Shown one piece after another: positions 39,073 through 59,175 of a stretch of 64,000 bases of DNA. This stretch comes from a virus (Duplodnaviria > Caudoviricetes). A model generated the notes under the pieces. That model made no database searches and had not been told where the DNA came from. It saw only the letters and a list, made by a program, of their open reading frames with translations. Both the position numbers and the translations under genes were made by a program. The stretch is from IMG/VR virus record IMGVR_UViG_3300010163_000022, positions 658 to 64,657 of that record; one strand, 5' to 3'. Numbering within the stretch: the first letter of the stretch is position 1; the number at the start of each line of letters is the position of its first letter.

Positions 39073-39100
39073 TTTACATTTTATCTAAAACTGATATAAA
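39073..39100 (+). promoter_or_regulatory. Conserved phage promoter (TTTACA-16 bp-TATAAA)
   Basis: TTTACA ttttatctaaaactga TATAAA. Confidence 0.8.
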
Positions 39101-39157
39101 TATAATTAATAAATATATATTATTTATTTATTAATTTAAAAATAAAGGATTGATATT

Positions 39158-39775
39158 ATGAAAATATCTAATATTAGAGTTTATGGATTGCAAGAAAGTT
39201 TAATTGCTTCAGGATATCCTATGAAAAATAATAATCAAATTGAAAATTTAAGCAATAATATGGTTTTTGACTCAAAAGTAGATATAAAAAGAGGTGAAAG
39301 ACTAGCAAATACAAAGATAGGAGAAGGTCACGATAATTTTTTAAATGGTATTATAGTTCAATTTGATTTGAAAACAAATTTAAAATTTTGGCCACAACTC
39401 CAACGTTATCATTTTGTTGATTTTGTTAGTAGCCAATCTATAATGCATACTGTAGAGAAAATTAATTTTAAAAAAGCTGAAAATTATTTTAATAAATATA
39501 TAAGTTATTCAAAAATTTGTGAACTAGAAGAAAAAAGACAAAAATATTTATTAGCTAAAGAAGAAAATAATAAAGATTTAATTGAAGAAGCTTTTAATGA
39601 TTTAGTATATAATATTCCATTAGGATTTGAATATACTGCAAGATTAACTACTAATTATCGTCAATTAAAAACAATTTATAATCAAAGAAAAAATCATAAA
39701 TTAAAAGAATGGAGAGACTTTTGTAAGTCATTAAAAGATTTACCTATGTCTAATCTTTTTATTATTGAAAATTAA
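39158..39775 (+). CDS. Divergent ThyX-fold (flavin-dependent thymidylate synthase-like) protein
   Basis: GHDNFL.GI.VQFDL..QLQRYHFVDFVSSQS; NIPLG..TNYRQLKTIYNQRKNHKL.EWR.FC mirrors the ThyX layout but lacks RHR. Confidence 0.55.
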   Translation: MKISNIRVYGLQESLIASGYPMKNNNQIENLSNNMVFDSKVDIKRGERLANTKIGEGHDNFLNGIIVQFDLKTNLKFWPQLQRYHFVDFVSSQSIMHTVEKINFKKAENYFNKYISYSKICELEEKRQKYLLAKEENNKDLIEEAFNDLVYNIPLGFEYTARLTTNYRQLKTIYNQRKNHKLKEWRDFCKSLKDLPMSNLFIIEN

Positions 39776-46134: not shown

Positions 46135-47019
46135 TTATAAATAACAAACTAATGAACAATATAATCTGTGTTTATTTTCTTCTTCGTTTTGTGCTTTTTT
46201 AACTATTCTTTGGCTTCTTTTGTATGTACTAACAATTAACTTATTATTTTCTAAATGTAAATCTTCAAGCATCTCTTGCAAAGTATATTCTTTTCTATTA
46301 TCAATAAAATCAACAAATGCTAACATATCATTTAATCCTAATATTTCAATTTCTTCTTCTTCATTTGCTGCTTTTTCAACTATAGCTGCTGTTAATAAAA
46401 TCCACGCTTCAATTTCTTTTATATCTGTTGTTCCTTGATGTTTTCTAAATTCTATTGTTCCATGCTTAATATAACTTTTTATATTTAAACTTCTATATCT
46501 TTCTCTTACACCTTGTGCTAAAAATCCAATATTATGACTTTCTTTTCTTAATTCTTTCATATCTTTATTAATCTCTACTGTATCAGCTAAAATATCTTGG
46601 CAATAATAACTATCTTCATATCTTCTAGGATTTATTATACTTCTAATTGCATTAAACTCATACTTTGCATATAAATTGAATAATCTTTGTACTTGAAAAT
46701 TATCAAAATCTCTAATATCATGATGTACATGAAAACCAGCTTTTTTTCCGCCGTGTGCTTTAATTTGTTTTCTTAAAATCTCAACAACTTTTTCTAATTC
46801 ATCAAAATCTTCTAAAACAGGACTTACTACTTCCCATCCGCATTTATCTAAACTACCATCAGGAACTATTTTCCAACTATCAATTAAATCTGGGCTATTG
46901 TGGTCATAATTAAATTCACAATTAATACCTGCTGCTTTGATTAAATCTACTGCTTTTCTAGGGTCAACTTTTGTCATAACTTCTAATTCTACTCCAAATC
47001 TCATTTTTCTTGTCTTCAT
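46135..47019 (-). CDS. Putative amidoligase (Amidoligase_2 / COOH-NH2 ligase type 2)
   Basis: RFGVELEV, WKIVPDGSL, WEVVSPVL, GFHVH, RYRSLN, GTIEFRKH. Confidence 0.9.
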   Translation of the reverse strand: MKTRKMRFGVELEVMTKVDPRKAVDLIKAAGINCEFNYDHNSPDLIDSWKIVPDGSLDKCGWEVVSPVLEDFDELEKVVEILRKQIKAHGGKKAGFHVHHDIRDFDNFQVQRLFNLYAKYEFNAIRSIINPRRYEDSYYCQDILADTVEINKDMKELRKESHNIGFLAQGVRERYRSLNIKSYIKHGTIEFRKHQGTTDIKEIEAWILLTAAIVEKAANEEEEIEILGLNDMLAFVDFIDNRKEYTLQEMLEDLHLENNKLIVSTYKRSQRIVKKAQNEEENKHRLYCSLVCYL

Positions 47020-48034: not shown

Positions 48035-48592
48035 TTATTTTTGTTTCAATTTTAAACAAGTATAATTATTATTTTCATTTTTTTTAACTAATATATAATT
48101 ATTTAAAATTTTATTATAAATAGAACATTTTTTATAATTTCTAGAACATTTTAAACAATTTTGTTTCAAAAAACTAATATATTCATTCATATTTTCAAAA
48201 ATTCCTATAAAATCTGATTGATAGATATTTAATTTTACATAAGCATTATCTTTATCAATATAAACTCTTTCAACTCTAGGAAGTGCTATATCATCATCTA
48301 CCCAAACTTCTGCTTTTGTCAAACAATCAAACATAACTTTAAAATAATTATTCGGATCTTTACCTTTTCTATCAAAAAAATATATTAAATCTACAAAAAT
48401 TAATTTATTTTTATCAGGCATTTTCCAATTTTGTTTAATTATTTCTTGCTTTACATAAGGAATAAATTCTTTACAATAATCTATAGTTTCTTTAGCAGAA
48501 TAAGATTGAACATATTTTTTATTAGTTCCTGAAACTCTATAATTTAAATAATGATTATTTGATGGAGGTATAGGTGATACTAATTTAAGCAT
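48035..48592 (-). CDS. rusA: RusA-like Holliday junction resolvase
   Basis: PPSNNHY, DPNNYFKVMFDCLTKAEVWVDDD. Confidence 0.88.
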   Translation of the reverse strand: MLKLVSPIPPSNNHYLNYRVSGTNKKYVQSYSAKETIDYCKEFIPYVKQEIIKQNWKMPDKNKLIFVDLIYFFDRKGKDPNNYFKVMFDCLTKAEVWVDDDIALPRVERVYIDKDNAYVKLNIYQSDFIGIFENMNEYISFLKQNCLKCSRNYKKCSIYNKILNNYILVKKNENNNYTCLKLKQK

Positions 48593-49163
48593 TATATTTC
48601 TCCATAAATTCTATTACTCTTTTATAAATATTTTCTTCTTTTAAACTTTCGGCATTTAACCATAAATTTATATTATGTTCAGTATCTAATAATTTAAAAT
48701 CTAAACTATCTCTTTTAATTCTATCTTCAATCTTGTCTAAATTTTCCTTTCTTAAAGATAATCTATTTAATTGCTCTCTTTTTCCTATATAAAGATATAT
48801 TCCTAAAACTTGATTTTTATATTTTTCTTTTATTTCTAAAAATCTTCTTGGTTCAATTATTAAATATTTTGATTTACTTAAATTTATAAAATCATTTTTA
48901 TTAAATCCATATTGCCACATATATTTTAATGTTTCTATATAAAAACTTCTTGTAAAAATTAATATATCTTGATTTTTTAATTCATTAAAAAATTCATTAC
49001 TTATAAATTTATAATCAAAAAATTCATAACTTTCATCATCACGCTTTTGTCTTGTTGTATATTGATAAATTGGTTCAAAATTGCTATTTTCTTTAAGTTT
49101 ATTAAATAATGTTGATTTACCACTACCGCTTTTTCCAATAATACAAAAAATTTTATTTAACAT
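48585..49163 (-). CDS. Guanylate-kinase-like nucleotide kinase
   Basis: GKSGSGKST, YTTRQKRDDE, RIKRDSLDF. Confidence 0.85.
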   Translation of the reverse strand: MLNKIFCIIGKSGSGKSTLFNKLKENSNFEPIYQYTTRQKRDDESYEFFDYKFISNEFFNELKNQDILIFTRSFYIETLKYMWQYGFNKNDFINLSKSKYLIIEPRRFLEIKEKYKNQVLGIYLYIGKREQLNRLSLRKENLDKIEDRIKRDSLDFKLLDTEHNINLWLNAESLKEENIYKRVIEFMEKYNA

Positions 49164-49185: not shown

Positions 49186-49548
49186 TTAATAATTATTTTT
49201 TTGTCTATCATAATTAATTTGATGTTTCTTTTTATATCTTTCTAATATTTCATCTTTTGTCATTCCTAAAGCTCCTGCAACATTCATAACAAAATGAAGA
49301 ACATCAATAAATTCATCTTTAGCTAAATCATATTGCTTATCAAAATCATAATTTTCTTTATCATATTTCTTGGACCAAGGTTTAATATAAGGAATTTCTC
49401 TTCCACATTCATGCAATTCTTCAGTAGCAAAATATAATTGGCCTCTAATATAATTAGCTAAATCTTTTTTTGTCATATTTTCTAAATTATAACCTAAACT
49501 TTCTTGAAATTCCAAACATTCTTTTAAAATATACTCTAAACTATCCAT
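49186..49548 (-). CDS. All-alpha (dimeric dUTPase/MazG-like) dNTP pyrophosphatase
   Basis: EELHE..E, EFIDVLHF, YKKKHQINYDRQ. Confidence 0.85.
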   Translation of the reverse strand: MDSLEYILKECLEFQESLGYNLENMTKKDLANYIRGQLYFATEELHECGREIPYIKPWSKKYDKENYDFDKQYDLAKDEFIDVLHFVMNVAGALGMTKDEILERYKKKHQINYDRQKNNY

Positions 49549-49588
49549 AACTATAACTCCTTTAATTTTAAAATTTAAATTTAATATA

Positions 49589-49616
49589 TTTATATCTGTT
49601 ATATTTAAAATGTAAA
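49589..49616 (-). promoter_or_regulatory. Conserved phage promoter (TTTACA-16 bp-TATAAA)
   Basis: Minus: TTTACA ttttaaatataacaga TATAAA. Confidence 0.8.
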
Positions 49617-49630
49617 TTAAAATTATAAAA

Positions 49631-52054
49631 TTATTTATCTAATTTATTTTTATCTATAAAAACTTCTATTTTTTCAAAATTATAATTCCCTATTTTGTAA
49701 GTTGTATGATTATATAAACTACCTATTTTTCGTGGTATAAATTGGTCATTTTTTCTATATCCTACTATAACTATTTTTGTACCTCTTTCAAACCAAGAAA
49801 TATCTAATATTATTTTTTCTTTATCTTTTATTTCTACAATTTTTTCATCATAATAATTATATAAAGCTTTAGAATAATTAACAACAACTAATCCATATTG
49901 AGTAAGAAGATATATTAAATGTTTACTTTTATTTTTTTCTACTACTGTTCCACCAATTAAATCTACTTTTATTTTTGGTCTTTTAGAGCTATAATCTTTA
50001 ATTGGTTCTTCAGGTAAATTATAAAAATTAGATAATTCAAAATAATTTTTTATAGGCATTAAATCAAATTCGTGTTTATCTGAGTAAAATAATAATGTTT
50101 CAATTTCCCACGACTCTTTTGTTCCTTTACAATTTTCTTGCCAAAATTTATTTTTTATTATTTTGTTATATAAATCTATAGCCTCTTGAGAATTTATATA
50201 TTGTAATAATTTTACTATACTTTTCTTGTAAAATCTGTCAAATTTTGTACTGTCTATAATTAATTTATTATTTTTAAAACTATAATCTACATCTTTAGAA
50301 TATTTTTCAATAAATTCTTTTTCTAATTCTTCATTTATTTCAATTTTATTTCTGCCAAAAACTTTATTTCTAAAATTATATATTTTTAATTCTTCTTCAA
50401 ATTTTTCTTTATCTATATAATTTATAATAATAGGTAGTTGAACCATTGTTATTTTTTTCTTATTTTCTACTGCATAATTTACAAAGTCTATCATTATTTT
50501 TTTTCTATCTTTATTAAAACAATCAAAACATCCAGCTTTAATTAAACTTATAATTTGTTTATTAGATATTTTTACTTTATTTAAAAAATCATTAAAACCA
50601 CTAAAAGGACGTAATTGCAATATTAAATTTATTGCATCATTACTTAAACCAATAATAGGCTTTAATCCAAATAAAATTTGATTAGTTTCTTCTAAAGGAG
50701 TAAATCCTAATTCAGATATATTTATATCAGGATTTTTTATAACCCCTTTCATATCTCCAACTGCTTTAGCTAATGCTCCATAATTAGTTCCATTAATATT
50801 ATCTTCAGATAAGCCAGAATTAACTGCTAAACATGCAGTTTGCCAATAAATTGTTCCATATCTATAACAAATATTCATTTCAATCATTAAAATTAATGTA
50901 TACCCAGTAGTATGTGGATTAGAAAATGAATAACTAAAAGAAGGTTTAAAACAATTATCCCATACATAGTCTAAAAATATTTTTCTAGCTCCTAAACTTA
51001 AGCCTTTTTTAATATATTTATTATATTCTACTTCTAATTCTTTCTTATTTTGCTTAGCTATTAATTTTCGATATTTATTTGCTTCTGTTAAATTATAATT
51101 AGATATATTTTTATCCATTATTACTTTCATTATTAATTCTTGAGAGTCACAAATACCATAATTTTTTAATAAAAGATTTTTTAAAACATCTATCTCTTTT
51201 TGATTTAATCCATAATCTTTCATTTCTTTAAACCATAAATCTATATTTTTTTTATATCTAATAAATTTATCTAAGGGCTGTTCTCCTTCACAATTTAATC
51301 TCATTAAGTTATTTCCAATACATAATTCATCAAAAGTTCTTGCATTAAGTTTTTTCAAAGCTTGTTGTCCTATTGGAGTAGTATATTGAAAAGCATCCAA
51401 TACTTTTCCTTCATATAACAAATCAAACATCTCTTGAGCATTCATCTCTAAAATATCAGGATGAAAATAATTATTATAAGTTTTTCTTAAAGACTCTTTC
51501 CATTGTATTTTATTATATTTTAATAATAAATTTAAAGCTTCTTTAATTCTCTGTAATGCATTTATAGATAAAAAATCTAATTTTAACCCACCCATATATT
51601 CAGTATCTACAGCATCAAATTGAGTTATAGCTAAATTAGAAGTAGTAGTCATCATTGCATTTTGTTTAATATAACTATTATTAAAAATAATCACTGCTGA
51701 AGCATGCTGCCCACGCCCAGATACTAATCCTTCAATAGCTAACATAGTTTCTTTTAAATTATCATATTTTTCTACAATATTAATAAAATCTTTCGCTGGC
51801 TTTTTACCTTTTTCTTCATTTCCATAAAAACATTCTTTTAAAGTCCATATTCCACCTTTTTCTACTGGAATTAATTTAGATAAATTTTGAGCAATATCAG
51901 TATCTATTTTTAATCCTCTACAAGAAGTTAATACTGCTGATCTTGCACCTTCTGTAGTAAAAGTTCCAACATTAAGAACATTATTTTTTCCATATTTTTG
52001 TTTTACTAATTCTAATATTTCTAATCTTTTACTTCCTTCTGTGTCAATATCAAT
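49631..52054 (-). CDS. dnaE: DNA polymerase III alpha subunit, exon 2
   Basis: Begins IDIDTEG, completing the PDIDID motif; HASAVI, KLDFLS, SFSNPH..Y, NPDINIS, FGLKPI.GL. Confidence 0.93.
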   Translation of the reverse strand: MDIDTEGSKRLEILELVKQKYGKNNVLNVGTFTTEGARSAVLTSCRGLKIDTDIAQNLSKLIPVEKGGIWTLKECFYGNEEKGKKPAKDFINIVEKYDNLKETMLAIEGLVSGRGQHASAVIIFNNSYIKQNAMMTTTSNLAITQFDAVDTEYMGGLKLDFLSINALQRIKEALNLLLKYNKIQWKESLRKTYNNYFHPDILEMNAQEMFDLLYEGKVLDAFQYTTPIGQQALKKLNARTFDELCIGNNLMRLNCEGEQPLDKFIRYKKNIDLWFKEMKDYGLNQKEIDVLKNLLLKNYGICDSQELIMKVIMDKNISNYNLTEANKYRKLIAKQNKKELEVEYNKYIKKGLSLGARKIFLDYVWDNCFKPSFSYSFSNPHTTGYTLILMIEMNICYRYGTIYWQTACLAVNSGLSEDNINGTNYGALAKAVGDMKGVIKNPDINISELGFTPLEETNQILFGLKPIIGLSNDAINLILQLRPFSGFNDFLNKVKISNKQIISLIKAGCFDCFNKDRKKIMIDFVNYAVENKKKITMVQLPIIINYIDKEKFEEELKIYNFRNKVFGRNKIEINEELEKEFIEKYSKDVDYSFKNNKLIIDSTKFDRFYKKSIVKLLQYINSQEAIDLYNKIIKNKFWQENCKGTKESWEIETLLFYSDKHEFDLMPIKNYFELSNFYNLPEEPIKDYSSKRPKIKVDLIGGTVVEKNKSKHLIYLLTQYGLVVVNYSKALYNYYDEKIVEIKDKEKIILDISWFERGTKIVIVGYRKNDQFIPRKIGSLYNHTTYKIGNYNFEKIEVFIDKNKLDK

Positions 52055-53066
52055 CACACTACTTAATTTTTAAAAATAGTGCGGACTATATCATAGTCTT
52101 CAGCTTAATCTGTTCAGACTCCATGCGCTTCGAATATAGCCATACAAAACTATATCCTATCTACTCAGCTAATTATTTAATTTATAATTGCTTTTCGTTA
52201 GTCTCTTCACATTTATTTAAATCATCTTTTAATATCCAATAAATTCCATTAAGTTTTTCAAATCCAGAAATTTTATATTGTTTTGGCTTTTTATATCCTA
52301 TATTTGCAGTTTTATAGTTATTAATAAGATATTGAATTAATTCAGATTTCGTATCAAATTCTATAAAAGAGCTATCTCTTAAATATAAAATACAAGCTTT
52401 AGCTTTTGGATTATTTTTTCCTTTTAATAATCCATTCTTCTTTTTTAAATCAGACAATTTTTTCTTTTTTTCTTCAGACCATTTATTATTATAATTAGGA
52501 TTATTTTTACCTTTATATCTTCCTTTCATTTTTAAAGATAAATTTTGTTTTTGAATATCTGTCCAATAATTTTGATAATTAGGATTATTTTTTCCATAAT
52601 TACAAAATTCTTTACAACAATAATTTTCCCCTAATTTATAATAATATTGCTGATAATAAACTTCTTTTTTTCTTACTTCATTAATATTATCTGACTCAAA
52701 TAAAATTATAACTTCAACATTTTCTATTCCTATTTTTGATACTTCTTCTTTCCACAAATTTGAACGAATTTTAAAATCAAACTCTCTTTTATTTTTAGAA
52801 TATTTACCACCAATATAAAAAATTTTATTATTTATTTTATTTTTATGAGCATATACATAAAATTTTTTAATTTTTATTCCTCCTAAGGAATTAAAAGATA
52901 ATTTAAAATTTAGCACAGCGATTGTCTTTTTATTTTAAAGATTTTCCCTGTTAGCAAAAGCATTAACTAATCATTTCCTATTAGAAACTAACGCTGCTTT
53001 CACACCGATTGTTAATCGTTCACATGGTTATTCGATAATCATTTCTGATTAAAGGGACGTTATTTC
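52055..53066 (-). mobile_element. Group I self-splicing intron (1012 nt) in dnaE
   Basis: Exon ends ...CCGGAU with IGS GUCC (U-G at the splice site); R-like GAAGAGACUA, S-like GAUAUAGUCC (P7), P3 GCUAA/UUAGC, P9 GCACUA/UAGUGU; terminal G; joining restores ERPTMPD|IDID. Confidence 0.92.
52182..52871 (-). CDS. Intron-encoded GIY-YIG homing endonuclease with NUMOD3 repeats
   Basis: FYVY..FYIG..R..E; three GKNNP repeats; 3' end overlaps the intron R element; likely ATT start at 52871 (the track's GTG 52916 lies in the intron core). Confidence 0.85.
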   Translation of the reverse strand: MKKFYVYAHKNKINNKIFYIGGKYSKNKREFDFKIRSNLWKEEVSKIGIENVEVIILFESDNINEVRKKEVYYQQYYYKLGENYCCKEFCNYGKNNPNYQNYWTDIQKQNLSLKMKGRYKGKNNPNYNNKWSEEKKKKLSDLKKKNGLLKGKNNPKAKACILYLRDSSFIEFDTKSELIQYLINNYKTANIGYKKPKQYKISGFEKLNGIYWILKDDLNKCEETNEKQL

Positions 53067-54407
53067 ATCCGGCATTGTAGGACGTTCTTCAGATAAAAAT
53101 CTCCAATAAGGTAAATCATATTTCAAAGGATTAACTTGAACTATATCTAAAAGATAATTAGTATAATAACAAGCTGCTGAACCTCTACTAGGACCTACTA
53201 AAGAAACTTTCCACATTAAATCTATAATCTCTTTTGTTAATACAAAATAAGATGATAAATTTTGATTTAATTTTTCAGAAATATTATAAATAGTTTTTAA
53301 CTCTAAATTAATTCTTGATAAATTTTCATCATTTAATTCTTCATTTTTTTCAATCATTCCATTAGCTATTAAATGTAAATAATATTTATTAATTTTTTCT
53401 TCACTATTAGCAAATATTTTTAAATATTTATATTTCTCATAATATGGACTAAATAAATTATTTAATTTAAATTCTGGTATATAAGCATTAGGAATTTGTA
53501 TATTTTGTTTAAAATCTATATCTTCTAATTTATTTTTAATTTCTAAAGTATTATTACATAATTCATCTAATAATTTACTATCAAAATAATTATTTAATTC
53601 TTTTTTACTCATAATATAAGTTGTTTTATAAAATTCTTGTACTTCTCTTTCTCCTTCGTCTGATTTTAAATAAATTTCATGAATTTTAGCTTGACTTTTA
53701 TTAAGATAATGAGCATCAGTTGTTACTATACATTTAATATTAAATTTTTTACTTATATTATAAAGTAATTTATTAGCTTTATCTTGATTACTTCCTTTAT
53801 CATTAGGTTGTAATTCTATATAAAAATTATTTTCAAATAAACTTTTACACCATTTTAAAAATTCTTCAGCTTCTTCATTTTTATTTTCTAATAATAAAGT
53901 AGGTAATTCTCCTCCTAAACAAGCAGTTGAAGCAATTAAATCTCCTTTATATTCTTTAGCTATTTTTTCTAAATTATGCTTATATGTTGGAACTCTTTGC
54001 ATACCTTTATAGTAAAAATTATTTTCCCAAGCTAATGAACTTAATTTTTTTAAAGCTTCATATCCTCTACTGTTTTTTGCTACTAATATAAAATGATAAA
54101 AAAGTATTTTTTCATTTAATTCTTTGAGTTTATTTACTTTATTTATATCTACTAAATATATCTCATTACCAAATCCTAATTTAAAATCTTTATCTATTAT
54201 ACCTGCTTCTTGTTGTTTTTTAAGATAATTTTGAGCTTTTATATGAGAGCTTAAACATTCGTGTTCAGTTAATATTAATCCATTTAGTCCTACTTCATAA
54301 GAATAGTTTATTAAATCTTCTATTTTATTAATTGAGTCTCGTAATCTAAAATTTGAAAAACAGCTATGACAATGAACTTCAAACCATGTATTCATTTTAT
54401 TTATCAT
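53067..54407 (-). CDS. dnaE: DNA polymerase III alpha subunit, exon 1 (PHP domain)
   Basis: HCHS, LTEHE, GNEIY, HFILVAKN, TTDAHY, GPSRGSA, RFLSEER; spliced product 1254 aa. Confidence 0.93.
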
Positions 54408-54513: not shown

Positions 54514-54963
54514 TTATTTTAATAAATATAAATGAGGCATTGAAACAAATACATTTAATTCTTTATTTTGCTTAATAAAATTTTTATTTAAATACCATTT
54601 TAAAAAAGTTATATCATCTTTTAAAGTAAAAATATTAGCAGATCTTTGGAATACATTCATTATTACTTTTCCTTTAAAAATTGAAAATTGAATACAACTA
54701 ATACATTCATCATTTGAAACAATAATCTGTCTAGGTGATGTAATTATTCCTATTTCAAATTTATATAAGATATGGTCAAGTTCAGTTTTTACTCTTTTAT
54801 AGTATAATTTATCTGTTTTAGGGAAAATAACTTCATAGACATTAGGATTAATTAATAAAAAACTTTCATAATTAATAATTGAATTATCTTGGTATTCTAT
54901 TTTTAAATCTTTATTATCAATAATAAACTTTGGTTCATAAATTATATTTTCGAAAATTTTCAT
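54514..54963 (-). CDS. Minimal ThyA-fold protein, candidate dCMP hydroxymethylase-like enzyme
   Basis: PRQII..ECISCIQFSIFKGKVIMNVFQRSANIFTLKDDI..PHLY aligns to ThyA PCH..QF..GKL..YQRSxD..FNI..HLY. Confidence 0.75.
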   Translation of the reverse strand: MKIFENIIYEPKFIIDNKDLKIEYQDNSIINYESFLLINPNVYEVIFPKTDKLYYKRVKTELDHILYKFEIGIITSPRQIIVSNDECISCIQFSIFKGKVIMNVFQRSANIFTLKDDITFLKWYLNKNFIKQNKELNVFVSMPHLYLLK

Positions 54964-54983
54964 TTTATAAACTCCTATTAAAT

Positions 54984-55961
54984 TTATTTATTATTTATTT
55001 CAAATCCTCGTTCATTCCAAAATTTTTTAGAACTTAATTTTAATTCTTTTAATAATTTTATATAAATATTTCTAACATTTTCAAAAACTTTTAAATGAGC
55101 TGAACCTGTACCTGCTACTTCATGCTTTAATCTTTCTCCATAAATAAAACTATCTGGATGCCATTCAAATTTATCATTTTTAGAATATGGAGCATATAAT
55201 CTTGTAGAATGTTCAGTTTGTGATGATTGTATATAAAAATAATCTGGAGCATCAAAATCTATTAAATTAAAGCAAGCTATAGGATAAACACTACACAATT
55301 CAACATACATTTTTAAAGCTAATACTACATCACTAGAAGGTTGAATTTGCTCATCTTTTCTTTGATTTAAAAATCCTAATAAATCTTTTAAATTACAACC
55401 TACATAATAAGAAGTATCATGGCACTTTGGTAAGCATAACCTTGCATCCATCATAGATATTTTATCACTATCAACCATATCTGCATATAATTGTATACAA
55501 TCTTTCATTAATTTTATATATCTATCTTTAAATTCTGGAGAATTAGAAATTGCTTCAGGCATTGTAATATTATGGCATCTTTGGTCTCTATCTCCTGTAC
55601 AAGATGATGAAAAACTAAAAGTTCTATGACGAAGTAAATGAGTAACATCTTGAATATTAATTCCATCAATTAAATAAACAAATCTTATTAATTCTAAAGC
55701 TGTAGGTAAAGTCTTTTTATTAAATATATTATACATTGCTTCTAATCTTTCGCTAAGCAAAAACTTTTTTTCACTAGGAAAATCTGTCCAAGTCATTTCT
55801 ACAAATTCTGGCATAAATTCAAGTAAATCATTAAATTTAGTATAATTAACTAAAGAAACTTTAATATTAAGCAAATCATTAACTACTTTTCCTGAAGGTT
55901 CTTGATTTCGTCTATTTGTCATAGGTAATGGTATAGGTTCTAAATTCATATTTTTAGGCAT
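54984..55961 (-). CDS. ThyX-fold flavoprotein with a variant motif
   Basis: TALE..F.IDGI..THLLRHRTFSFSSSCTGDR; DARLCLP; NLKDLLGFLNQR. Confidence 0.8.
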   Translation of the reverse strand: MPKNMNLEPIPLPMTNRRNQEPSGKVVNDLLNIKVSLVNYTKFNDLLEFMPEFVEMTWTDFPSEKKFLLSERLEAMYNIFNKKTLPTALELIRFVYLIDGINIQDVTHLLRHRTFSFSSSCTGDRDQRCHNITMPEAISNSPEFKDRYIKLMKDCIQLYADMVDSDKISMMDARLCLPKCHDTSYYVGCNLKDLLGFLNQRKDEQIQPSSDVVLALKMYVELCSVYPIACFNLIDFDAPDYFYIQSSQTEHSTRLYAPYSKNDKFEWHPDSFIYGERLKHEVAGTGSAHLKVFENVRNIYIKLLKELKLSSKKFWNERGFEINNK

Positions 55962-55980
55962 TTCAAATCTTCCTTTCTTA

Positions 55981-56427
55981 TTAAATTAATTTTTTATTTT
56001 TTAATTCTAAAACTATCTCATTTATAGGTTTAATTGTAGAGTCAATTTTTATCTTATTTTTGTATAAAGAATTATTAAAACACTTTTCATAAATTTTTTT
56101 ATGATAATCAAAATCTATTATTTTATGATTTGTTTTTCTACATCTTCTAATTAATTCTTTAGTTTGACAATCTAAATAAATAACTAAAATTTTATTTCCT
56201 AATACTTTGCTTAAAATTTTTTCTAATTTTTTATATTTTTTCTTTAAACTTTTTGGTCTTTTAAAAATCTCGCAATAAGCTCTAAATCCAATTGTTGCTC
56301 TATCAATTGTAATATGTTTATAATTACATTGTTTATTTATCTCTTGTATCAAAGTTGTTTTTCCACTTCTATCGACGCCGCATAAAATTATTATTTTAGG
56401 ATTTACTTCTAATTTTATATTAATCAC
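55981..56427 (-). CDS. dNMP kinase (thymidylate-kinase-like P-loop)
   Basis: GVDRSGKTT, TIDR, VIYLDC, IKIDST; start probably non-canonical (ATA 56418). Confidence 0.8.
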   Translation of the reverse strand: MINIKLEVNPKIIILCGVDRSGKTTLIQEINKQCNYKHITIDRATIGFRAYCEIFKRPKSLKKKYKKLEKILSKVLGNKILVIYLDCQTKELIRRCRKTNHKIIDFDYHKKIYEKCFNNSLYKNKIKIDSTIKPINEIVLELKNKKLI

Positions 56428-56452
56428 CTCCTTATTTATTTATATAATTTTA

Positions 56453-56480
56453 TTTATATCTGTTTCATTTTAAGTGTAAA
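56453..56480 (-). promoter_or_regulatory. Conserved phage promoter (TTTACA-16 bp-TATAAA)
   Basis: Minus: TTTACA cttaaaatgaaacaga TATAAA. Confidence 0.8.
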
Positions 56481-56490
56481 TTAAAATTAT

Positions 56491-57864
56491 TTATTTAGTT
56501 ATTTTAATTATTTTTTTACCAGTTAATCCTCCATACATACTAATCATATCTTTAGCTAAACCTCTTGGACACATAGGAAGTAAATTATTAGAATTATATA
56601 ACTTTATAAATTCATTTGTTAAAAGTTGATTTTGGGTTAAATAAAAAACTAAATCTTTTAAATTTTGAAACTTTTCATTATCTTTATTAATTAAAAATAA
56701 TTGATTAAATAAATCTGGTAATACAATATTAGTATCATATTCATTTTTTAAAACTTCAAAAGCGGTTTGTCTATATAAAGTTTGTAATTCTTTACTTTTA
56801 GATATTTCTTTAAGCTGATTAATCATTGTATCTGGGTTATCTTCATCATAAATTACTGCAAAATTATCTATAGTAATATAACTTTTACCTTCTTTAGTTC
56901 TACATCTTTGAGCCCACTGCTTATTAACTATTAAAATTGAACCAGCCAAAATTGCTTCTTGCATAGTATATTCCATTCTATCGCCATAAAAAGATTGTTC
57001 TATATCAGAGCTAAATTTAAAAGGAACCCATGCAAACATATAATTACTAAAAATATCTATTACTTGGCTATTTGCTATTCTAGGATAAGTATCTACAATA
57101 GGATTTTCATTTCTAGGAAGATTTTTTTGTAATAAATTGTTACAATTTTTATGATTTAAAATATTATGTTTACAACCCATAGATGTATCCATTCCATATA
57201 TATAGCAATTAAATCCATTATCTTTTAATTTTTCAGATAAATCTAATAATTTTTTAGGACCTTTATATAAAACAAATCTACCTATATATACAATTGAATT
57301 TTCTTTCTTTATTTCAAAATCTCTTTTTTTATTAATATCAATCCATAAATGCATAGGATAACATTTATCCTTTTTTGATGGTAAAGCTTGAGCTATTTCT
57401 TTTATATAATAACTTTTAGCAGAATGATTATATATAGCATCAGAAAAATTAAGATATGCCCATAAATAAGGAGTCTCATTAATAGCTTTTAAAAAAGAAG
57501 TATGTTGCATTTGAATTTTAATAGGCTTTAAATCTTTATACATTTCAAAAAAAGCTTTTATATCTTCTGCTTTTAAACCTGAATGCATTTTTGGAAAATT
57601 TAATAAAATTATTAAATCATATTTATTTAATTCATTTTTAATATTTTCTATTTGAGTATAATTAAAAATTTTATATTTATGTTGATATTTATCTTTATAA
57701 GTTGGTTCATTTCTTTTCCAAATAGGATGATAATAATAAGTCACAATTTCTAAATCATTTTTTAAACTCCAATTATACATTTCTTCTACTGATGTACTTT
57801 CTCCATCAATCATTCTAGGATAGCCTCTTAATATTGCAATTTTTCTATTTTTATATAAATTCAT
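56491..57864 (-). CDS. agt: DNA alpha-glucosyltransferase homologue (T4 Agt family, GT-B fold)
   Basis: Collinear motifs vs T4 Agt recalled from memory: NWSLKN/DWFIKN, YDLIILLNFP/CDILIINSVP, QHTS/QHDH, AIYNHS/VIFSHS, YIGR..YKG/WIGR..WKG, MEYT..EA..G/LEYT..EL..G, IYDEDN/WFDEND. Confidence 0.85.
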   Translation of the reverse strand: MNLYKNRKIAILRGYPRMIDGESTSVEEMYNWSLKNDLEIVTYYYHPIWKRNEPTYKDKYQHKYKIFNYTQIENIKNELNKYDLIILLNFPKMHSGLKAEDIKAFFEMYKDLKPIKIQMQHTSFLKAINETPYLWAYLNFSDAIYNHSAKSYYIKEIAQALPSKKDKCYPMHLWIDINKKRDFEIKKENSIVYIGRFVLYKGPKKLLDLSEKLKDNGFNCYIYGMDTSMGCKHNILNHKNCNNLLQKNLPRNENPIVDTYPRIANSQVIDIFSNYMFAWVPFKFSSDIEQSFYGDRMEYTMQEAILAGSILIVNKQWAQRCRTKEGKSYITIDNFAVIYDEDNPDTMINQLKEISKSKELQTLYRQTAFEVLKNEYDTNIVLPDLFNQLFLINKDNEKFQNLKDLVFYLTQNQLLTNEFIKLYNSNNLLPMCPRGLAKDMISMYGGLTGKKIIKITK

Positions 57865-57904
57865 AATTTTCCTCCTCTACTTTATTTTCTTTTTTATAAA
57901 TAAA

Positions 57905-57954
57905 AAGCTAAAAATATTTAAAAGCTTTTAACTTATTAAAATATTTTTTAGCTT
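57905..57954. repeat. Long-spacer inverted repeat between the HD and agt genes
   Basis: AAGCTAAAAATATTT ... AAATATTTTTTAGCTT with one bulged base. Confidence 0.7.
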
Positions 57955-57967
57955 ATTTATTTTAAAT

Positions 57968-58654
57968 TTAAATATCGCTTTCTTTTGCTAGCTTATCTAT
58001 TTTATTGCAAAGATTTAATATTTTTTCAATTTTTTTTGAATTAAATTCTTTTGATAAATCAGTTTTCATATTATTATCTATAGCTTCAATATTTTTTTGA
58101 TAATCAAGATATTTTTCAATTTTTTTATCTAATTCATTTATTCTATTAATTGTATCTAAAAAAATATCATTAATTTCGTGAGTAGAATTACCTAAATTTA
58201 TCTCATTAGAAGTATATAAATATACAGAAATTACATCAGCCATTTTAACTAATAAATATATAAAAGGTTCAGTATCTTTAAAATTATCTAATTCTGAATA
58301 AACTTCATAATATTCTGGTAAATTATTTTTTATATAATTTAATTCTGCTTTTCTTAATATATCTCTTAGCTCTTGATTATCTCTTTTAAAATCATATGAT
58401 AAATCATTAGAAACTAATTCTGGAATATCATGAACGATAATATATTCTATAGCTCTTTGTCTTATTTTTCTATCAATTTTATAATAATCACAAATTTTAA
58501 ATAAACTCGCTGCAGCAATAAACGTATGAGTAGCTACTGACTCATTTTTAATTTTAGGACGATTATTATATCTAATCATTTCTCCAAGTGATAAAATTCT
58601 AGTATCATCAAATATTTGCAAAAATTTATCAAGTTTTTTATTATCTATTGACAT
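57968..58654 (-). CDS. HD-domain (deoxy)nucleotide phosphohydrolase, YfbR/DatZ-like
   Basis: IRYNN..ESVATHTF, IIVHDIPE..D, VKMAD. Confidence 0.88.
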   Translation of the reverse strand: MSIDNKKLDKFLQIFDDTRILSLGEMIRYNNRPKIKNESVATHTFIAAASLFKICDYYKIDRKIRQRAIEYIIVHDIPELVSNDLSYDFKRDNQELRDILRKAELNYIKNNLPEYYEVYSELDNFKDTEPFIYLLVKMADVISVYLYTSNEINLGNSTHEINDIFLDTINRINELDKKIEKYLDYQKNIEAIDNNMKTDLSKEFNSKKIEKILNLCNKIDKLAKESDI

Positions 58655-59100
58655 TATTCAATTTCTCCTTTCCATTTTTTATATTCTTTTTCTAATAAAG
58701 CATCATAAAGTTCTTGATATGTTACACAAATTGCTATTGCACTTTCAGCTAACATTAAATTAAATTGAGAAGTATTTTTTAAATTTTCACAAAAATAAAT
58801 AATAGGTTTATTATTAGCATAAGCATAACCAGCTTCAAATATGGTACCTGTATCTATTTTACCTTTATCACCATTAGAAGTATTTACTAAAATAATATCG
58901 CAATCTAAAATTGATACTAAATTCTTATTTAAAGTTTCTTTTCTTTGCTTTTGAGTTGCATTTGGTAAACAACAAGTTTCTTTTCTAGGTGAAAATACTT
59001 CATAGCCACATTCTTCAATAATTTGTTCTAAATTTTGAACTTGATCTAAATGTAAAGGACAAAACCAACCACTTGCTAAATAAATCTTTTTTTTGCTCAT
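58654..59100 (-). CDS. Nucleoside 2-deoxyribosyltransferase / N-glycosidase family protein
   Basis: KIYLASGWF, EVFSP, DTGTIFEAGYAYA..KPII, FNLML. Confidence 0.9.
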   Translation of the reverse strand: MSKKKIYLASGWFCPLHLDQVQNLEQIIEECGYEVFSPRKETCCLPNATQKQRKETLNKNLVSILDCDIILVNTSNGDKGKIDTGTIFEAGYAYANNKPIIYFCENLKNTSQFNLMLAESAIAICVTYQELYDALLEKEYKKWKGEIE

Positions 59101-59147
59101 TAAATATTCCTCCTTATTTTTTATTTTTAATTAATTTATATAAAATA

Positions 59148-59175
59148 TTTATATCTATAAATTTAAAAATGTAAA
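59148..59175 (-). promoter_or_regulatory. Conserved phage promoter (TTTACA-16 bp-TATAAA)
   Basis: Minus: TTTACA tttttaaatttataga TATAAA; heads the NDT-HD-agt run. Confidence 0.78.

What the first reader, a model, noticed from the sequence alone, without database searches (positions are those of the whole stretch)
54514..59100. Candidate undescribed DNA hypermodification system: Agt-like glycosyltransferase plus two atypical pyrimidine-modifying enzymes, a kinase and nucleotide-purging enzymes, next to Pol III alpha
Seen: six co-oriented genes (NDT, HD, agt-like, dNMP kinase, ThyX-fold, mini-ThyA) under two copies of the phage's conserved promoter, directly upstream of dnaE; downstream of dnaE lie a dNTP pyrophosphatase and a second kinase. 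Known: T-even phages make hm-dCMP with a ThyA-fold enzyme, phosphorylate it, destroy dCTP and glucosylate DNA with Agt/Bgt. Inference: this phage replaces a pyrimidine (most likely C) with a 5-substituted base at the nucleotide level, then glycosylates it on DNA. The parts differ from T4: a 149-aa ThyA core, a flavin-dependent ThyX variant, an HD+NDT pair and a C-family polymerase. I know of no characterised example in an HK97-type siphovirus of a Gram-positive anaerobe, but that needs a literature check.
Basis: partly seen in the sequence, partly recalled or inferred. Interest (0 to 1): 0.9.

Follow-up and report, generated by a model that had tools for sequence, protein, structure and literature searches.

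The report
Phage DNA base-modification gene cassette
An uncultured phage of an anaerobic, low-GC host carries a conserved gene set that looks built to replace a DNA pyrimidine with a modified one and then attach a sugar, using two enzyme types (a cysteine-bearing ThyX and a half-size ThyA) that nobody has characterised.

Summary
Six co-oriented minus-strand genes lie under two of five exact copies of a phage promoter: NDT, HD 5'-deoxynucleotidase, T4 Agt-like glycosyltransferase, TMPK-like kinase, ThyX-like, and a 149-aa protein. They sit upstream of an intron-split dnaE.

The boldest call, "mini-ThyA", holds. The fold matches only the ThyA family. A profile-profile comparison (96%) aligns ThyA R127, C146, R166, S167 and H207. 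N177 is Asp (dCMP specificity) and D169 is Asn (the 5-hydroxy-dCMP synthase signature).

The ThyX-like protein belongs to a phage-restricted clade with an invariant Cys in place of ThyX Ser88.

The genes co-occur. ThyX-like travels with NDT in 81 of 87 loci. The kinase is fused to mini-ThyA in marine phage contigs (probably large genomes) and to NDT in another clade. Only one isolate, Geobacillus phage GR1, carries the set.

Related Enterococcus phages (VPE25 and VFW) have glycosylated cytosine; their near relative vipetofem carries a normal ThyA and a 352-aa gene I take to be their β-glucosyltransferase at the same genomic position.

Most likely this is a T4-like pyrimidine replacement plus DNA glycosylation, built from non-orthologous parts. 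The base identity and chemistry are unproven. The phage encodes NrdD/NrdG, which argues against O2-dependent hydroxylation.

The parts
59146..59175 (-). Copy of the phage promoter motif (TTTACA-N14-GATATAAATA) ahead of NDT-HD(-GT)
   Evidence: 5 exact copies in the window, 0.05 expected by chance; sequence read
58654..59100 (-). Nucleoside 2-deoxyribosyltransferase (NDT), 148 aa
   Evidence: PF05014 E 9e-19; PDB 6evs E 8e-8 with the DTGTxFE motif; found in 81 of 87 ThyX-like loci
57968..58654 (-). HD-domain 5'-deoxynucleotidase-like hydrolase (YfbR/HDDC2/DatZ-like), 228 aa
   Evidence: PF12917 E 2.5e-13; phrog_7076 E 3e-28; PDB 2cqz/1xx7/HDDC2; found in 25 of 87 loci
56491..57864 (-). T4 Agt-like (GT-B) DNA alpha-glucosyltransferase homologue, 457 aa
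   Evidence: phrog_2888 E 1.5e-45; T4 AGT 1xv5 E 4e-6 over nearly full length; 56% identical to the GR1 glycosyltransferase and 29% to Bacillus phage G gp306
56451..56480 (-). Second promoter-motif copy, ahead of kinase-ThyX-like-miniThyA(-dnaE)
55981..56427 (-). Minimal TMPK-like P-loop kinase, 148 aa (GVDRSGKT P-loop, DR motif)
   Evidence: weak PF02223/PF01712 hits; phrog_761; alignment A4; fused to mini-ThyA or to NDT in other phages
54984..55961 (-). ThyX-like flavoenzyme, 325 aa, with invariant Cys121 at the position of ThyX Ser88 and a ~95-aa C-terminal extension
   Evidence: PF02511 58.7 bits, but TIGR02170 36.9 against a cutoff of 87.9; alignment A1; best T. maritima match is the chain (3g4c) that carries Cys at position 88 in the printed alignment; AF2 pLDDT 85 and Foldseek ThyX E 1e-9
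54514..54963 (-). Mini-ThyA, 149 aa: the ThyA catalytic core (about E. coli residues 120-211) with Cys87=C146, Arg107=R166, Asn110=D169, Asp117=N177, His144=H207
   Evidence: AF2 pLDDT 73; Foldseek gave 210 PDB hits at E<=1e-3, and every hit in the printed list (ranks 1-50) is ThyA/dCMP hydroxymethylase/dCMP hydroxylase; hhalign A5 vs A3 Prob 96.2%, E 2.7e-9
49631..54407 (-). dnaE (Pol III alpha) in two exons (53049-54407 and 49631-52057), split by a ~990-nt group-I-intron-like insert carrying a NUMOD3 homing endonuclease (52182-52916)
   Evidence: Pfam PHP/DNA_pol3_alpha/finger/HHH_6 with contiguous profile positions 103/104; RF00028 21.4 bits, below threshold, at 52869-52951; phrog_314
49186..49616 (-). 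Promoter-motif copy (49587-49616) plus a dUTPase_2-family all-alpha NTP pyrophosphatase, 120 aa
   Evidence: PF08761 32.8 bits; phrog_173/18650; homologous cluster in 64 of 87 loci; promoter
48585..49163 (-). Guanylate-kinase-like second kinase, 192 aa
   Evidence: PF00625; phrog_1815 E 8e-32
4730..7208 (+). Anaerobic ribonucleotide reductase NrdD (4730-6682) and a radical-SAM activase-like protein, NrdG (6672-7208). They supply dNTPs and mark an anaerobic host.
   Evidence: PF13597 E 1.8e-79; PF13353 E 7e-10
46135..47019 (-). Amidoligase_2 protein, 294 aa. Possible accessory tailoring enzyme; low confidence.
   Evidence: PF12224 E 2.4e-29; in the closest relative (L005) a homologue sits between NDT/424-aa and ThyX-like
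39073..39775 (+). Fifth promoter copy (39073-39102) plus a second, very divergent ThyX-fold ORF (39158-39775, 205 aa). Possibly co-regulated; role unknown.
   Evidence: phrog_6721 E 2e-50; homologues in Clostridium, Clostridioides and Fusobacterium phages

Best explanation
The cluster is a DNA hypermodification cassette. It works like the T4 hmC-glucosylation system but is built from non-orthologous parts.

Proposed flow. Every step is inferred from homology; none has been shown biochemically.
1. NrdD/NrdG make dNTPs anaerobically.
2. The dUTPase_2-family pyrophosphatase, helped by the HD nucleotidase, converts or purges the canonical pyrimidine dNTP/dNMP.
3. A C5-modified pyrimidine dNMP is made by the two atypical enzymes. 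The mini-ThyA has a dCMP-type pocket (Cys nucleophile, Asp at the N177 position) and no folate-binding half. The Cys-bearing ThyX-like flavoenzyme is the only component that could handle a one-carbon unit.
4. The TMPK-like kinase phosphorylates the product, and the phage's own DnaE incorporates it.
5. The Agt-like GT glycosylates the hydroxyl-bearing base in DNA.
6. NDT, HD and the kinase form a nucleoside-level shunt that reroutes deoxyribose from unwanted bases.

My best guess for the base is cytosine converted to 5-hydroxymethylcytosine, with an O2-independent hydroxymethylation because the host is anaerobic.

Odds: about 0.65-0.7 that a modified pyrimidine is made. Within that, roughly 60:40 cytosine to uracil/thymine.
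For: Gene identities.

Mini-ThyA:
- The fold matches only ThyA-family chains in the printed list, including T4 dCH and the HY126 dCMP hydroxylase.
- hhalign gives 96% and places C146, R166, S167, R127 and H207 on invariant residues, with Asp at N177 invariant across 20 divergent sequences.
- My own alignment reproduces the published specificity rules: 169 is D/D/N and 177 is N/D/D for E. coli ThyA, T4 gp42 and RB69 gp48 (PMC13326640).

ThyX-like:
- It is a phage-restricted clade: 238 IMG/VR contigs, 3 of 185,579 cellular species genomes (all MAGs), and 1 of 50,697 isolate phage records.
- The motif is invariant: RHR..S....C, with Cys aligned to T. maritima Ser88.
- It scores below the NCBIfam thyX equivalog cutoff.

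Co-occurrence and fusions:
- NDT in 81 of 87 loci, DnaE in 65, the NTP-PPase cluster in 64.
- Kinase-miniThyA fusions of ~302 aa, with the ThyX-like gene on the same contig in nearly all testable cases.
- Kinase-NDT fusions.

Decorating enzymes next to the core in other clades: an SDR sugar epimerase/dehydratase in 46 loci, a methyltransferase, an amidoligase.

Co-regulation: the same exact promoter stands before NDT, the kinase, the NTP-PPase and RecJ.

Synteny: in vipetofem (same group as VPE25/VFW by identical TerL statistics), the RecJ-to-DnaE interval holds a ThyA-family gene and a 352-aa neighbour that I take to be the beta-GT. VPE25/VFW DNA resists bisulfite and MspI and is cut by PvuRts1I (PMC4999554).

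No canonical ThyA is present in this phage or in GR1.
Against: - There are no chemical data for any member.
- The Agt-like GT is present in only 7 of 87 loci, so glycosylation is not a property of the core.
- Mini-ThyA lacks roughly the first 115 residues of ThyA and has Asn at D169. It probably cannot bind folate, so it is unlikely to be a classical hydroxymethylase.
- Its D169N signature points to O2/flavin-dependent 5-hydroxylation (PMC13326640). That conflicts with NrdD/NrdG in this phage and in the L011 relative.
- The ThyX-like enzyme keeps the arginines equivalent to T. maritima R147 and R174. In canonical ThyX these contact uracil (my recollection of the structures). The kinase is TMPK-like. 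Both favour a uracil-derived product, or simply dTMP.
- The role of NDT, the gene most tightly linked to ThyX-like, is not explained by the T4 analogy.
Confidence: 0.6

Rival explanations
1. This is thymine replacement, not cytosine replacement. The ThyX-like enzyme is a flavin-dependent dUMP hydroxymethylase. The TMPK-like kinase phosphorylates hm-dUMP. HD acts as a dTMPase and the pyrophosphatase as a dTTPase/dUTPase, as in SPO1-type phages. The GT then makes a glucosyl-hmU, a base-J-like base. Mini-ThyA feeds the pathway from dCMP (for example by covalent-catalysis deamination) or gates the kinase.
For: - The ThyX-like enzyme retains the residues equivalent to T. maritima R147 and R174, and the RxDxxxQ block.
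- The kinase carries a type-I TMPK P-loop and a DR motif.
- HD is YfbR-like.
- No dCMP deaminase was found in the ORFs I scanned.
- ThyX chemistry passes through an exocyclic methylene that water could trap (discussed in PMC8989533).
Against: - Mini-ThyA has an invariant Asp at the N177 position, the dCMP determinant, and is fused to the kinase in marine phages. This suggests the kinase's substrate is the mini-ThyA product.
- The syntenic island in related Enterococcus phages is associated with cytosine modification.
- Replacing about 39% of all bases in a 22%-GC genome with a glycosylated base would be extreme.
Confidence: 0.25
2. This is ordinary nucleotide-pool provisioning with no base replacement. 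The ThyX-like enzyme is simply a divergent thymidylate synthase. dUTPase, TMPK-like kinase, NDT and HD are a dTTP synthesis and salvage kit for an AT-rich genome. The GT glycosylates something other than DNA, such as a wall polymer or a protein. Mini-ThyA is a non-catalytic dCMP-sensing domain.
For: - Each family (ThyX, dUTPase, TMPK, NDT, 5'-nucleotidase, NrdD) has a normal role in dTTP supply.
- The genome is 78% A+T.
- GR1's locus is 32% GC, while its Geobacillus host is, from my own knowledge, about 52% GC.
- The GT is absent from most loci that carry the core.
Against: - The ThyX-like clade is essentially phage-only, has lost several canonical ThyX residues and carries an invariant Cys. 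It fails the thyX equivalog cutoff.
- Loci carrying the core range from 30 to 56% GC, so the module is not tied to AT-richness.
- Mini-ThyA conserves the full catalytic set, not only binding residues.
- The GT is a specific homologue of a DNA glucosyltransferase and sits in the nucleotide operon.
- Sugar-nucleotide enzymes recur next to the core.
Confidence: 0.2
3. This is the glycosylated 5-hydroxycytosine pathway of the RB69/DLP3/RL38JI type. Mini-ThyA is a minimal flavin-dependent dCMP 5-hydroxylase. Reduced flavin comes from the ThyX-like flavoprotein, or in GR1 from the adjacent nitroreductase. The kinase makes 5ho-dCDP, and the GT glycosylates 5hoC.
For: - D169N plus N177D in the window's clade matches the published diagnostic for 5hodCMP synthases.
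- Foldseek hits include the HY126 dCMP hydroxylase 9iqu.
- Loss of the folate-binding half fits a folate-independent reaction.
- GR1 has an NAD(P)H nitroreductase inside the cluster.
- The published assay likewise needed a cognate dNMP kinase.
Against: - The known reaction needs O2. This phage and the L011 relative encode the O2-sensitive NrdD.
- Many marine homologues have Asp or Glu, not Asn, at position 169.
- At 149 aa it is far smaller than the 217-240-aa hydroxylases and may lack a flavin pocket.
Confidence: 0.12

Closest known systems
T4 glucosyl-hydroxymethylcytosine system (gp56 dCTPase/dUTPase, gp42 dCMP hydroxymethylase, gp1 dNMP kinase, Agt/Bgt, td, NrdD/G)
   Same: The logic matches: NTP pyrophosphatase, C5-pyrimidine enzyme with Cys and Asp177, dNMP kinase, and an Agt homologue. 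The GT is a true sequence homologue of T4 Agt. Anaerobic RNR is present. The genes are clustered with the replicative polymerase.
   Different: There is no full-length ThyA-family enzyme. The ThyA-like part is a 149-aa core without the folate-binding half. A Cys-bearing ThyX paralogue is present. The kinase is TMPK-like rather than gp1-like. NDT and HD have no T4 counterpart. The polymerase is C-family DnaE.
5-hydroxy-dCMP synthases and glycosyl-5-hydroxycytosine pathways (RB69 gp48, DLP3 gp80, HY126 AfhB, RL38JI; PMC13326640)
   Same: ThyA fold, catalytic Cys, and the N177D and D169N signature in the window's clade. A dedicated dNMP kinase and GT-B transferases are present.
   Different: The known enzymes are 217-240 aa, use flavin plus O2, and come from aerobic or facultative Gram-negative hosts. 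Here the protein has 149 aa, the host is anaerobic, and position 169 varies across the family.
Enterococcus phages VPE25/VFW and vipetofem (Andrewesvirinae) with glycosylated cytosine (PMC4999554)
   Same: Related virion module (TerL 60%) and the same replication-module layout. The modification genes sit between RecJ and DnaE. The host is Gram-positive and the phages are siphophages.
   Different: In vipetofem the island has a conventional 281-aa ThyA-family gene and a 352-aa neighbour that I take to be the beta-glucosyltransferase PMC4999554 reports for VPE25/VFW. Apart from DnaE and RecJ, none of the 13 window proteins I queried (which include the six island genes) has a homologue in the vipetofem interval searched, record positions 40,000-68,000.
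Canonical flavin-dependent thymidylate synthase ThyX and the UMP/dUMP methylase PolB
   Same: Same fold. The RHR motif, the first Ser, and the equivalents of R147 and R174 are retained.
   Different: Ser88 is replaced by an invariant Cys. The H53, E86, R90 and Y91 columns are changed. There is a ~95-aa C-terminal extension. The score is below the equivalog cutoff. The clade is virtually absent from cellular genomes.
Bacillus phage SP-15 (two ThyX homologues; glucosylated/phosphoglucuronylated 5-dihydroxypentyluracil; PMC5977210) and SPO1-type hmU phages
   Same: There is a precedent, as a published hypothesis, for a ThyX paralogue acting in a pyrimidine hypermodification pathway in a Firmicutes phage. 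This window also has two ThyX-fold genes.
   Different: The SP-15 proteins did not appear among homologues of this ThyX-like protein in the phage collection. No biochemical proof exists there either. SPO1 uses a ThyA-family dUMP hydroxymethylase.

Membership tests
T4-type hmC glucosylation system | Full-length ThyA-family dCMP hydroxymethylase (PF00303) with a folate site | tested here: not met
   PF00303 finds nothing in the 64.6-kb record. Only a 149-aa core is present, aligning to E. coli ThyA residues 120-211.
T4-type hmC glucosylation system | Catalytic Cys146 and Asp at position 177 (dCMP specificity) | tested here: met
   C87 and D117 are invariant in 20 sequences and are aligned by hhalign at Prob 96%. 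The rule was checked on T4 gp42 and RB69 gp48.
T4-type hmC glucosylation system | DNA alpha-glucosyltransferase (Agt) homologue | tested here: met
   phmmer to T4 AGT 1xv5/1y6f E 4e-6 over residues 28-386; phrog_2888 E 1.5e-45. The acceptor is not testable here.
T4-type hmC glucosylation system | dCTP-destroying pyrophosphatase and an hm-dCMP kinase | tested here: inconclusive
   A dUTPase_2-family NTP-PPase and a TMPK-like kinase are present. Their substrate specificities are unknown.
T4-type hmC glucosylation system | hmC or glucosyl-hmC actually present in virion DNA | not testable with these tools
   No sequencing run was listed and there are no chemical data.
ThyX (flavin-dependent thymidylate synthase, TIGR02170 equivalog) | Thy1 domain and ThyX fold | tested here: met
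   PF02511 58.7 bits against a cutoff of 24.8. Foldseek hits to ThyX at E 1e-9, TMt 0.6-0.66.
ThyX (flavin-dependent thymidylate synthase, TIGR02170 equivalog) | Score above the curated equivalog cutoff | tested here: not met
   36.9 bits against 87.9.
ThyX (flavin-dependent thymidylate synthase, TIGR02170 equivalog) | ThyX motif RHRxxSxxxxSxR(Y) | tested here: not met
   RHR and the first Ser are present. The second Ser is an invariant Cys, followed by TGDR instead of GRY.
5-hydroxy-dCMP synthase (RB69 gp48 / AfhB type) | ThyA fold with D169N and N177D | tested here: met
   N110 and D117. Asn at position 169 holds in the window's clade, but only in some marine homologues.
5-hydroxy-dCMP synthase (RB69 gp48 / AfhB type) | Complete ~217-240-aa enzyme with a flavin pocket; O2 as co-substrate | tested here: not met
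   The protein has 149 aa and lacks the N-terminal half. The phage encodes O2-sensitive NrdD/NrdG. Flavin binding is not testable here.
Nucleoside 2-deoxyribosyltransferase (PF05014) | Domain above cutoff and the catalytic Glu in the DxGTxxExG motif | tested here: met
   68.1 bits against 28.8. The alignment to 6evs shows DTGTiFEaG. The DNPH1-type phosphate-binding motif is absent, by inspection of the sequence.
Thymidine hypermodification (5-hmdU DNA kinase + aGPT-Pplase amino-acid:DNA transferase) | aGPT-Pplase-type transferase and a DNA-level kinase in the cluster | tested here: not met
   No such family appeared in Pfam or PHROG scans of the cluster and its neighbours. The kinase looks nucleotide-level, being TMPK-like.
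Z-genome (PurZ/DatZ/MazZ) system | PurZ adenylosuccinate-synthetase homologue alongside the HD dATPase | tested here: not met
   HD hits the DatZ-containing phrog_7076. No PurZ-like family appeared in any ORF I scanned.

The most novel reading that the evidence does not exclude
The Cys-bearing ThyX clade is a flavin-dependent pyrimidine hydroxymethylase, or another C5-alkylating enzyme, that has acquired covalent Cys catalysis. It works with a folate-less mini-ThyA/TMPK-kinase module and an NDT shunt. This would be a third, independently evolved enzymatic route to C5-modified pyrimidine DNA, after ThyA-family and TET/JBP-family enzymes. It would be O2-independent and widespread in uncultured marine phages (probably with large genomes) as well as in Firmicutes siphophages.
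Probability: 0.35. Interest if true: 0.9.

Novelty: new variant of a known kind. Interest (0 to 1): 0.78.

Why it matters
All phage pathways known so far for C5-modified pyrimidines start from a full-length ThyA-family enzyme (pre-replicative) or from a methyltransferase/TET-JBP dioxygenase (post-replicative). Here, two uncharacterised enzyme families sit where that enzyme should be:
- ThyX with Cys at the Ser88 position.
- A 149-aa ThyA core, often fused to a TMPK-like kinase.

The mini-ThyA family comprises 463 sequence clusters among 1.84 billion representative proteins. The ThyX-like gene is found on at least 238 viral contigs.

If these enzymes make a modified base, they would:
- define new nucleotide chemistry that can run without oxygen;
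- explain resistance to restriction and CRISPR in a large uncultured phage group;
- add enzymes for making modified DNA in vitro.

The hypothesis can be tested directly, because one cultured phage, Geobacillus phage GR1, carries the whole set.

Tried and rejected
- The look-up of sequencing runs: none was listed.
- HMMER-only searches of the 149-aa protein against Pfam, NCBIfam and PDB gave nothing. hhalign with a shallow 7-sequence alignment gave only 7.7%. The deeper 20-sequence alignment gave 96%.
- The generic sigma-70 scan is not above chance in this AT-rich DNA: 84 found against 90 expected. The real promoter motif came from comparing intergenic regions. My first pattern had the wrong spacing and found nothing.
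- Rfam at gathering threshold found nothing in the window. The group I intron match is below threshold.
- The variable proteins between NDT and DnaE in marine loci, and the 424-aa protein of L005, have no Pfam or PHROG match. I cannot say whether they are glycosyltransferases.
- Literature searches for ThyX combined with hypermodification, hydroxymethylase or NDT in phages found nothing describing this module. No paper on phage GR1 is in the library.
- A Z-genome reading (DatZ-like HD) was rejected: no PurZ.
- A thymidine hypermodification reading of the M6/ViI type was rejected: no aGPT-Pplase.
- The search for related loci with the broad mini-ThyA alignment failed for lack of a conserved stretch. 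The fused-protein alignment A6 was used instead.

Full report
**Observation.**

The window is almost all of a 64.6-kb IMG/VR virus record at about 22% GC. Virion genes lie on the plus strand and a replication/nucleotide module lies on the minus strand.

- **NDT (58654-59100):** PF05014 E 9e-19. The closest solved relative is a true N-deoxyribosyltransferase, and the catalytic DTGTxFE motif is present.
- **HD hydrolase (57968-58654):** YfbR/HDDC2/DatZ-like.
- **Glycosyltransferase (56491-57864), 457 aa:** a genuine sequence homologue of T4 DNA alpha-glucosyltransferase. phmmer gives E 4e-6 over nearly the full length, and phrog_2888 gives E 1.5e-45.
- **P-loop kinase (55981-56427), 148 aa:** its GVDRSGKT loop and DR motif are those of type-I thymidylate kinases.
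- **ThyX-fold protein (54984-55961), 325 aa**.
- **A 149-aa protein (54514-54963)** with no HMMER-detectable family.

The "conserved promoter" is real. TTTACA-N14-GATATAAATA occurs five times exactly, against 0.05 expected by chance. The copies stand before NDT, the kinase, the downstream NTP pyrophosphatase, RecJ, and a second ThyX-fold gene on the other strand.

dnaE follows directly but is split by a ~990-nt intron-like insert that carries a NUMOD3 homing endonuclease. Beyond dnaE lie a dUTPase_2-family pyrophosphatase and a guanylate-kinase-like protein.

The phage has an HK97-type capsid. It also encodes NrdD/NrdG, so it replicates in an anaerobe.

**The 149-aa protein is a mini-ThyA.**

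An AlphaFold model built from a 7-sequence alignment (pLDDT 73) gave 210 PDB hits at E<=1e-3. Every hit in the printed list is a thymidylate synthase, T4 dCMP hydroxymethylase, or the dCMP hydroxylase AfhB of phage HY126.

I then compared two profiles: 20 divergent family members against E. coli ThyA, T4 gp42 and RB69 gp48. hhalign gave probability 96.2%, E 2.7e-9, and aligned residues 72-148 to ThyA residues 120-211. The residue equivalences are:

| Mini-ThyA | E. coli ThyA | Note |
|---|---|---|
| R78 | R127 | |
| C87 | C146 | catalytic cysteine |
| R107 / S108 | R166 / S167 | |
| N110 | D169 | |
| D117 | N177 | |
| H144 | H207 | |

R78, C87, R107, S108 and D117 are invariant across the 20 sequences. 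H144 is nearly so.

The protein lacks roughly the first 115 residues of ThyA, which carry most of the folate contacts, and also the C-terminal ~55 residues.

In a 2026 study (PMC13326640), Asp at position 177 marks dCMP-specific enzymes, and Asn at position 169 was diagnostic for flavin/O2-dependent 5-hydroxy-dCMP synthases. My own alignment reproduces those states in T4 gp42 and RB69 gp48.

The window's clade has both substitutions. In marine homologues position 169 is Asn in some and Asp or Glu in others, while Asp177 is invariant.

A full-library profile search finds 463 representative clusters. They are either ~150-230 aa standalone proteins or ~300 aa fusions. None of the 150 listed hits looks like a full-length ThyA.

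**The ThyX-like protein is not an ordinary ThyX.**

It scores 36.9 bits against the NCBIfam thyX equivalog cutoff of 87.9. In 23 sequences that share as little as 39% identity with the window protein, the motif is invariant: VTHxxRHRxxSFxxxCTGDR. The Cys aligns with T. maritima Ser88, and the best-scoring T. maritima chain in the PDB (3g4c) carries Cys at that position in the printed alignment.

The equivalents of R78/H79/R80, R147, R174 and the following RxDxxxQ block are kept. The H53, E86, R90 and Y91 columns are changed. A conserved ~95-residue C-terminal extension is added.

The clade is essentially phage-only:
- at least 238 IMG/VR contigs;
- 3 of 185,579 species genomes, all MAGs;
- one of 50,697 isolate phage records, Geobacillus phage GR1.

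GR1, a Bacillus wiedmannii assembly contig and several IMG/VR contigs show the same order: DnaB, primase, RecJ, NDT, HD, GT, kinase, (RNase H), ThyX-like, mini-ThyA, DnaE, pyrophosphatase, guanylate kinase.

Across 87 loci that carry the ThyX-like gene:
- NDT is present in 81, usually adjacent.
- DnaE is within 10 kb in 65.
- A dUTPase_2-like cluster is present in 64.
- HD is present in 25.
- The Agt-like GT is present in only 7.

Gene fusions tie the parts together.
- In marine contigs the TMPK-like kinase is fused to a C-terminal mini-ThyA, about 302 aa in total. CheckV rates contigs of 34-115 kb as 13-46% complete, so these phages probably have large genomes.
- In a third clade the kinase is fused to NDT.

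Starting instead from the fused kinase:
- DnaE is in 80 of 80 loci.
- The ThyX-like gene lies within 10 kb in 36 of 65 loci with a full upstream flank.
- By matching contig names between the two lists by eye, about 15 more lie on contigs that already held a ThyX-like locus.
- The gene is present in full length elsewhere on the contig in 7 of 10 of the remainder that I tested. The other three are small fragments.

Next to the core, the marine loci carry an NAD-dependent sugar epimerase/dehydratase (46 loci), an Fpg/Nei glycosylase (35 loci), and variable unannotated proteins. The closest low-GC relative has an amidoligase between NDT and ThyX-like. The window has an amidoligase further downstream.

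**Relatives with data.**

The large terminase is 68% identical to GR1's and 60% identical to that of Enterococcus phages VPE25, VFW and vipetofem. VPE25/VFW DNA resists bisulfite conversion, EcoRI and MspI and is cut by PvuRts1I. The authors read this as glycosylated cytosine (PMC4999554).

In vipetofem the interval between RecJ and DnaE holds a conventional 281-aa ThyA-family gene and a 352-aa neighbour. I take that neighbour to be the beta-glucosyltransferase the paper reports for VPE25/VFW; it is annotated only as hypothetical. When I searched 13 window proteins (including the six island genes) against that vipetofem interval (record positions 40,000-68,000), only DnaE and RecJ matched.

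So this genomic position is a modification island in the lineage. The window and GR1 fill it with a different, uncharacterised enzyme set and have no canonical ThyA.

**Mechanism.**

The best-supported reading is a functional analogue of the T4 system:
- NrdD/G supply dNTPs.
- A pyrophosphatase, with HD, turns the canonical pyrimidine dNTP into dNMP or purges it.
- The atypical C5 enzymes make a modified dNMP.
- The TMPK-like kinase phosphorylates it.
- DnaE incorporates it.
- The Agt-like GT glycosylates it in DNA.

Which enzyme does what is inferred, not shown. Mini-ThyA has a dCMP-type pocket but no folate half. The ThyX-like enzyme is the only candidate one-carbon handler. Its Cys sits where Ser88 lies close to C6 of the pyrimidine in canonical ThyX (my recollection of the structural literature), which would suit covalent activation.

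The same enzyme set occurs both in phages with NrdD (this one and L011) and in phages without it (GR1 and L014). An O2-independent chemistry, that is hydroxymethylation, is therefore more parsimonious than the O2-dependent 5-hydroxylation that D169N would otherwise suggest.

The retained uracil-type arginines in the ThyX-like enzyme and the TMPK-like kinase keep a thymine-replacement (glucosyl-hmU) version alive. A plain dTTP-provisioning reading cannot be excluded. It fits poorly with four observations: the clade is phage-only; the catalytic-site changes are invariant; mini-ThyA is conserved; and sugar enzymes recur next to the core. The 30-56% GC range of carriers also counts against it.

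The role of NDT, the most faithful partner of ThyX-like, remains the least explained part. Its fusion to the kinase suggests a nucleoside-level shunt: dNMP to dN by HD, base exchange by NDT, then re-phosphorylation.

**Novelty and verdict.**

Pre-replicative pyrimidine replacement followed by DNA glycosylation is a known kind of system. Glycosylated cytosine in a Gram-positive siphophage has been reported since 2016.

What appears new is the enzymology, together with its wide distribution in uncultured phages. I found no description of it in the searchable literature.

Earlier first-stage notes of this scan flagged the same Cys-ThyX (e1-5910220, this stretch) and a similar MazG-NDT-HD-ThyX-kinase-DnaE block in another genome (e1-3280806). 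My comparative analysis agrees with both.

Interest 0.78; new variant of a known kind.

Noticed in passing
window 52058-53048 (minus strand), within dnaE: dnaE is interrupted exactly between Pfam DNA_pol3_alpha profile positions 103 and 104. The insert is ~990 nt, has higher GC, and encodes a NUMOD3 homing endonuclease (52182-52916). Rfam group I intron RF00028 matches 52869-52951 at only 21.4 bits, below threshold. Likely a group I intron in the replicative polymerase gene.
   Followed up: partly
window 39073-39775 (plus strand): A second, very divergent ThyX-fold ORF: 205 aa, PF02511 27.9 bits, with QRYH in place of RHR. It follows the endolysin and is driven by an exact copy of the same promoter motif as the nucleotide genes. 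Its family (phrog_6721, function unknown) occurs in Clostridium, Clostridioides difficile and Fusobacterium phages.
   Followed up: partly
window 39073, 49587, 56451, 59146, 61001: Five exact copies of TTTACA-N14-GATATAAATA (0.05 expected by chance) define a regulon of nucleotide and replication genes. The phage also encodes two sigma-70-like proteins (2440-3006 plus strand, 47263-47880 minus strand).
   Followed up: partly
window 4730-7208 (plus strand): Anaerobic ribonucleotide reductase NrdD plus an NrdG-like activase. This supports an anaerobic host and constrains the possible modification chemistry.
   Followed up: yes
window 46135-47019 (minus strand); L005 8484-9692: An Amidoligase_2 (PF12224) gene. 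In the closest relative it sits inside the NDT...ThyX-like cluster, so the modification may carry a further amide-linked group in this low-GC clade.
   Followed up: no
L020, L025, L027, L030, L035, L063 and others (e.g. L063 6813-7721): Marine phage contigs (probably large genomes) encode a ~302-aa fusion of the TMPK-like kinase and mini-ThyA. Position 169 (E. coli ThyA numbering) is Asn in some and Asp/Glu in others, which suggests subfamilies with different chemistry.
   Followed up: partly
L015 7800-8738, L016, L017, L040, L044, L074, L077, L078, L033: A third clade fuses the TMPK-like kinase (GIDRVGKTT P-loop) to NDT (~311 aa), followed by HD and ThyX-like. This hints that the kinase may act on the nucleoside made by NDT.
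   Followed up: partly
L003 11048-12034, L080 16228-17223, L041 5952-6767 and about 40 other marine loci: An NAD-dependent sugar epimerase/dehydratase (46 loci) and an Fpg/Nei DNA glycosylase (35 loci) recur next to ThyX-like/NDT in the marine phages. Two tandem dUTPase_2-like genes lie directly upstream of ThyX-like.
   Followed up: no
L001 (Geobacillus phage GR1, OK896991) 8823-9422 and neighbours: GR1 adds an NAD(P)H nitroreductase/flavin reductase, RNase H and two thioredoxins inside the same cluster. Its locus is 32% GC.
   Followed up: no
window 57865-57967 (minus strand): The HD-GT intergenic region lacks the promoter motif but contains an AT-rich inverted repeat (AAGCTAAAAAATATTT ... 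AAATATTTTTAGCTT), seen only by reading the sequence. It could be a terminator or attenuator between HD and the GT.
   Followed up: no
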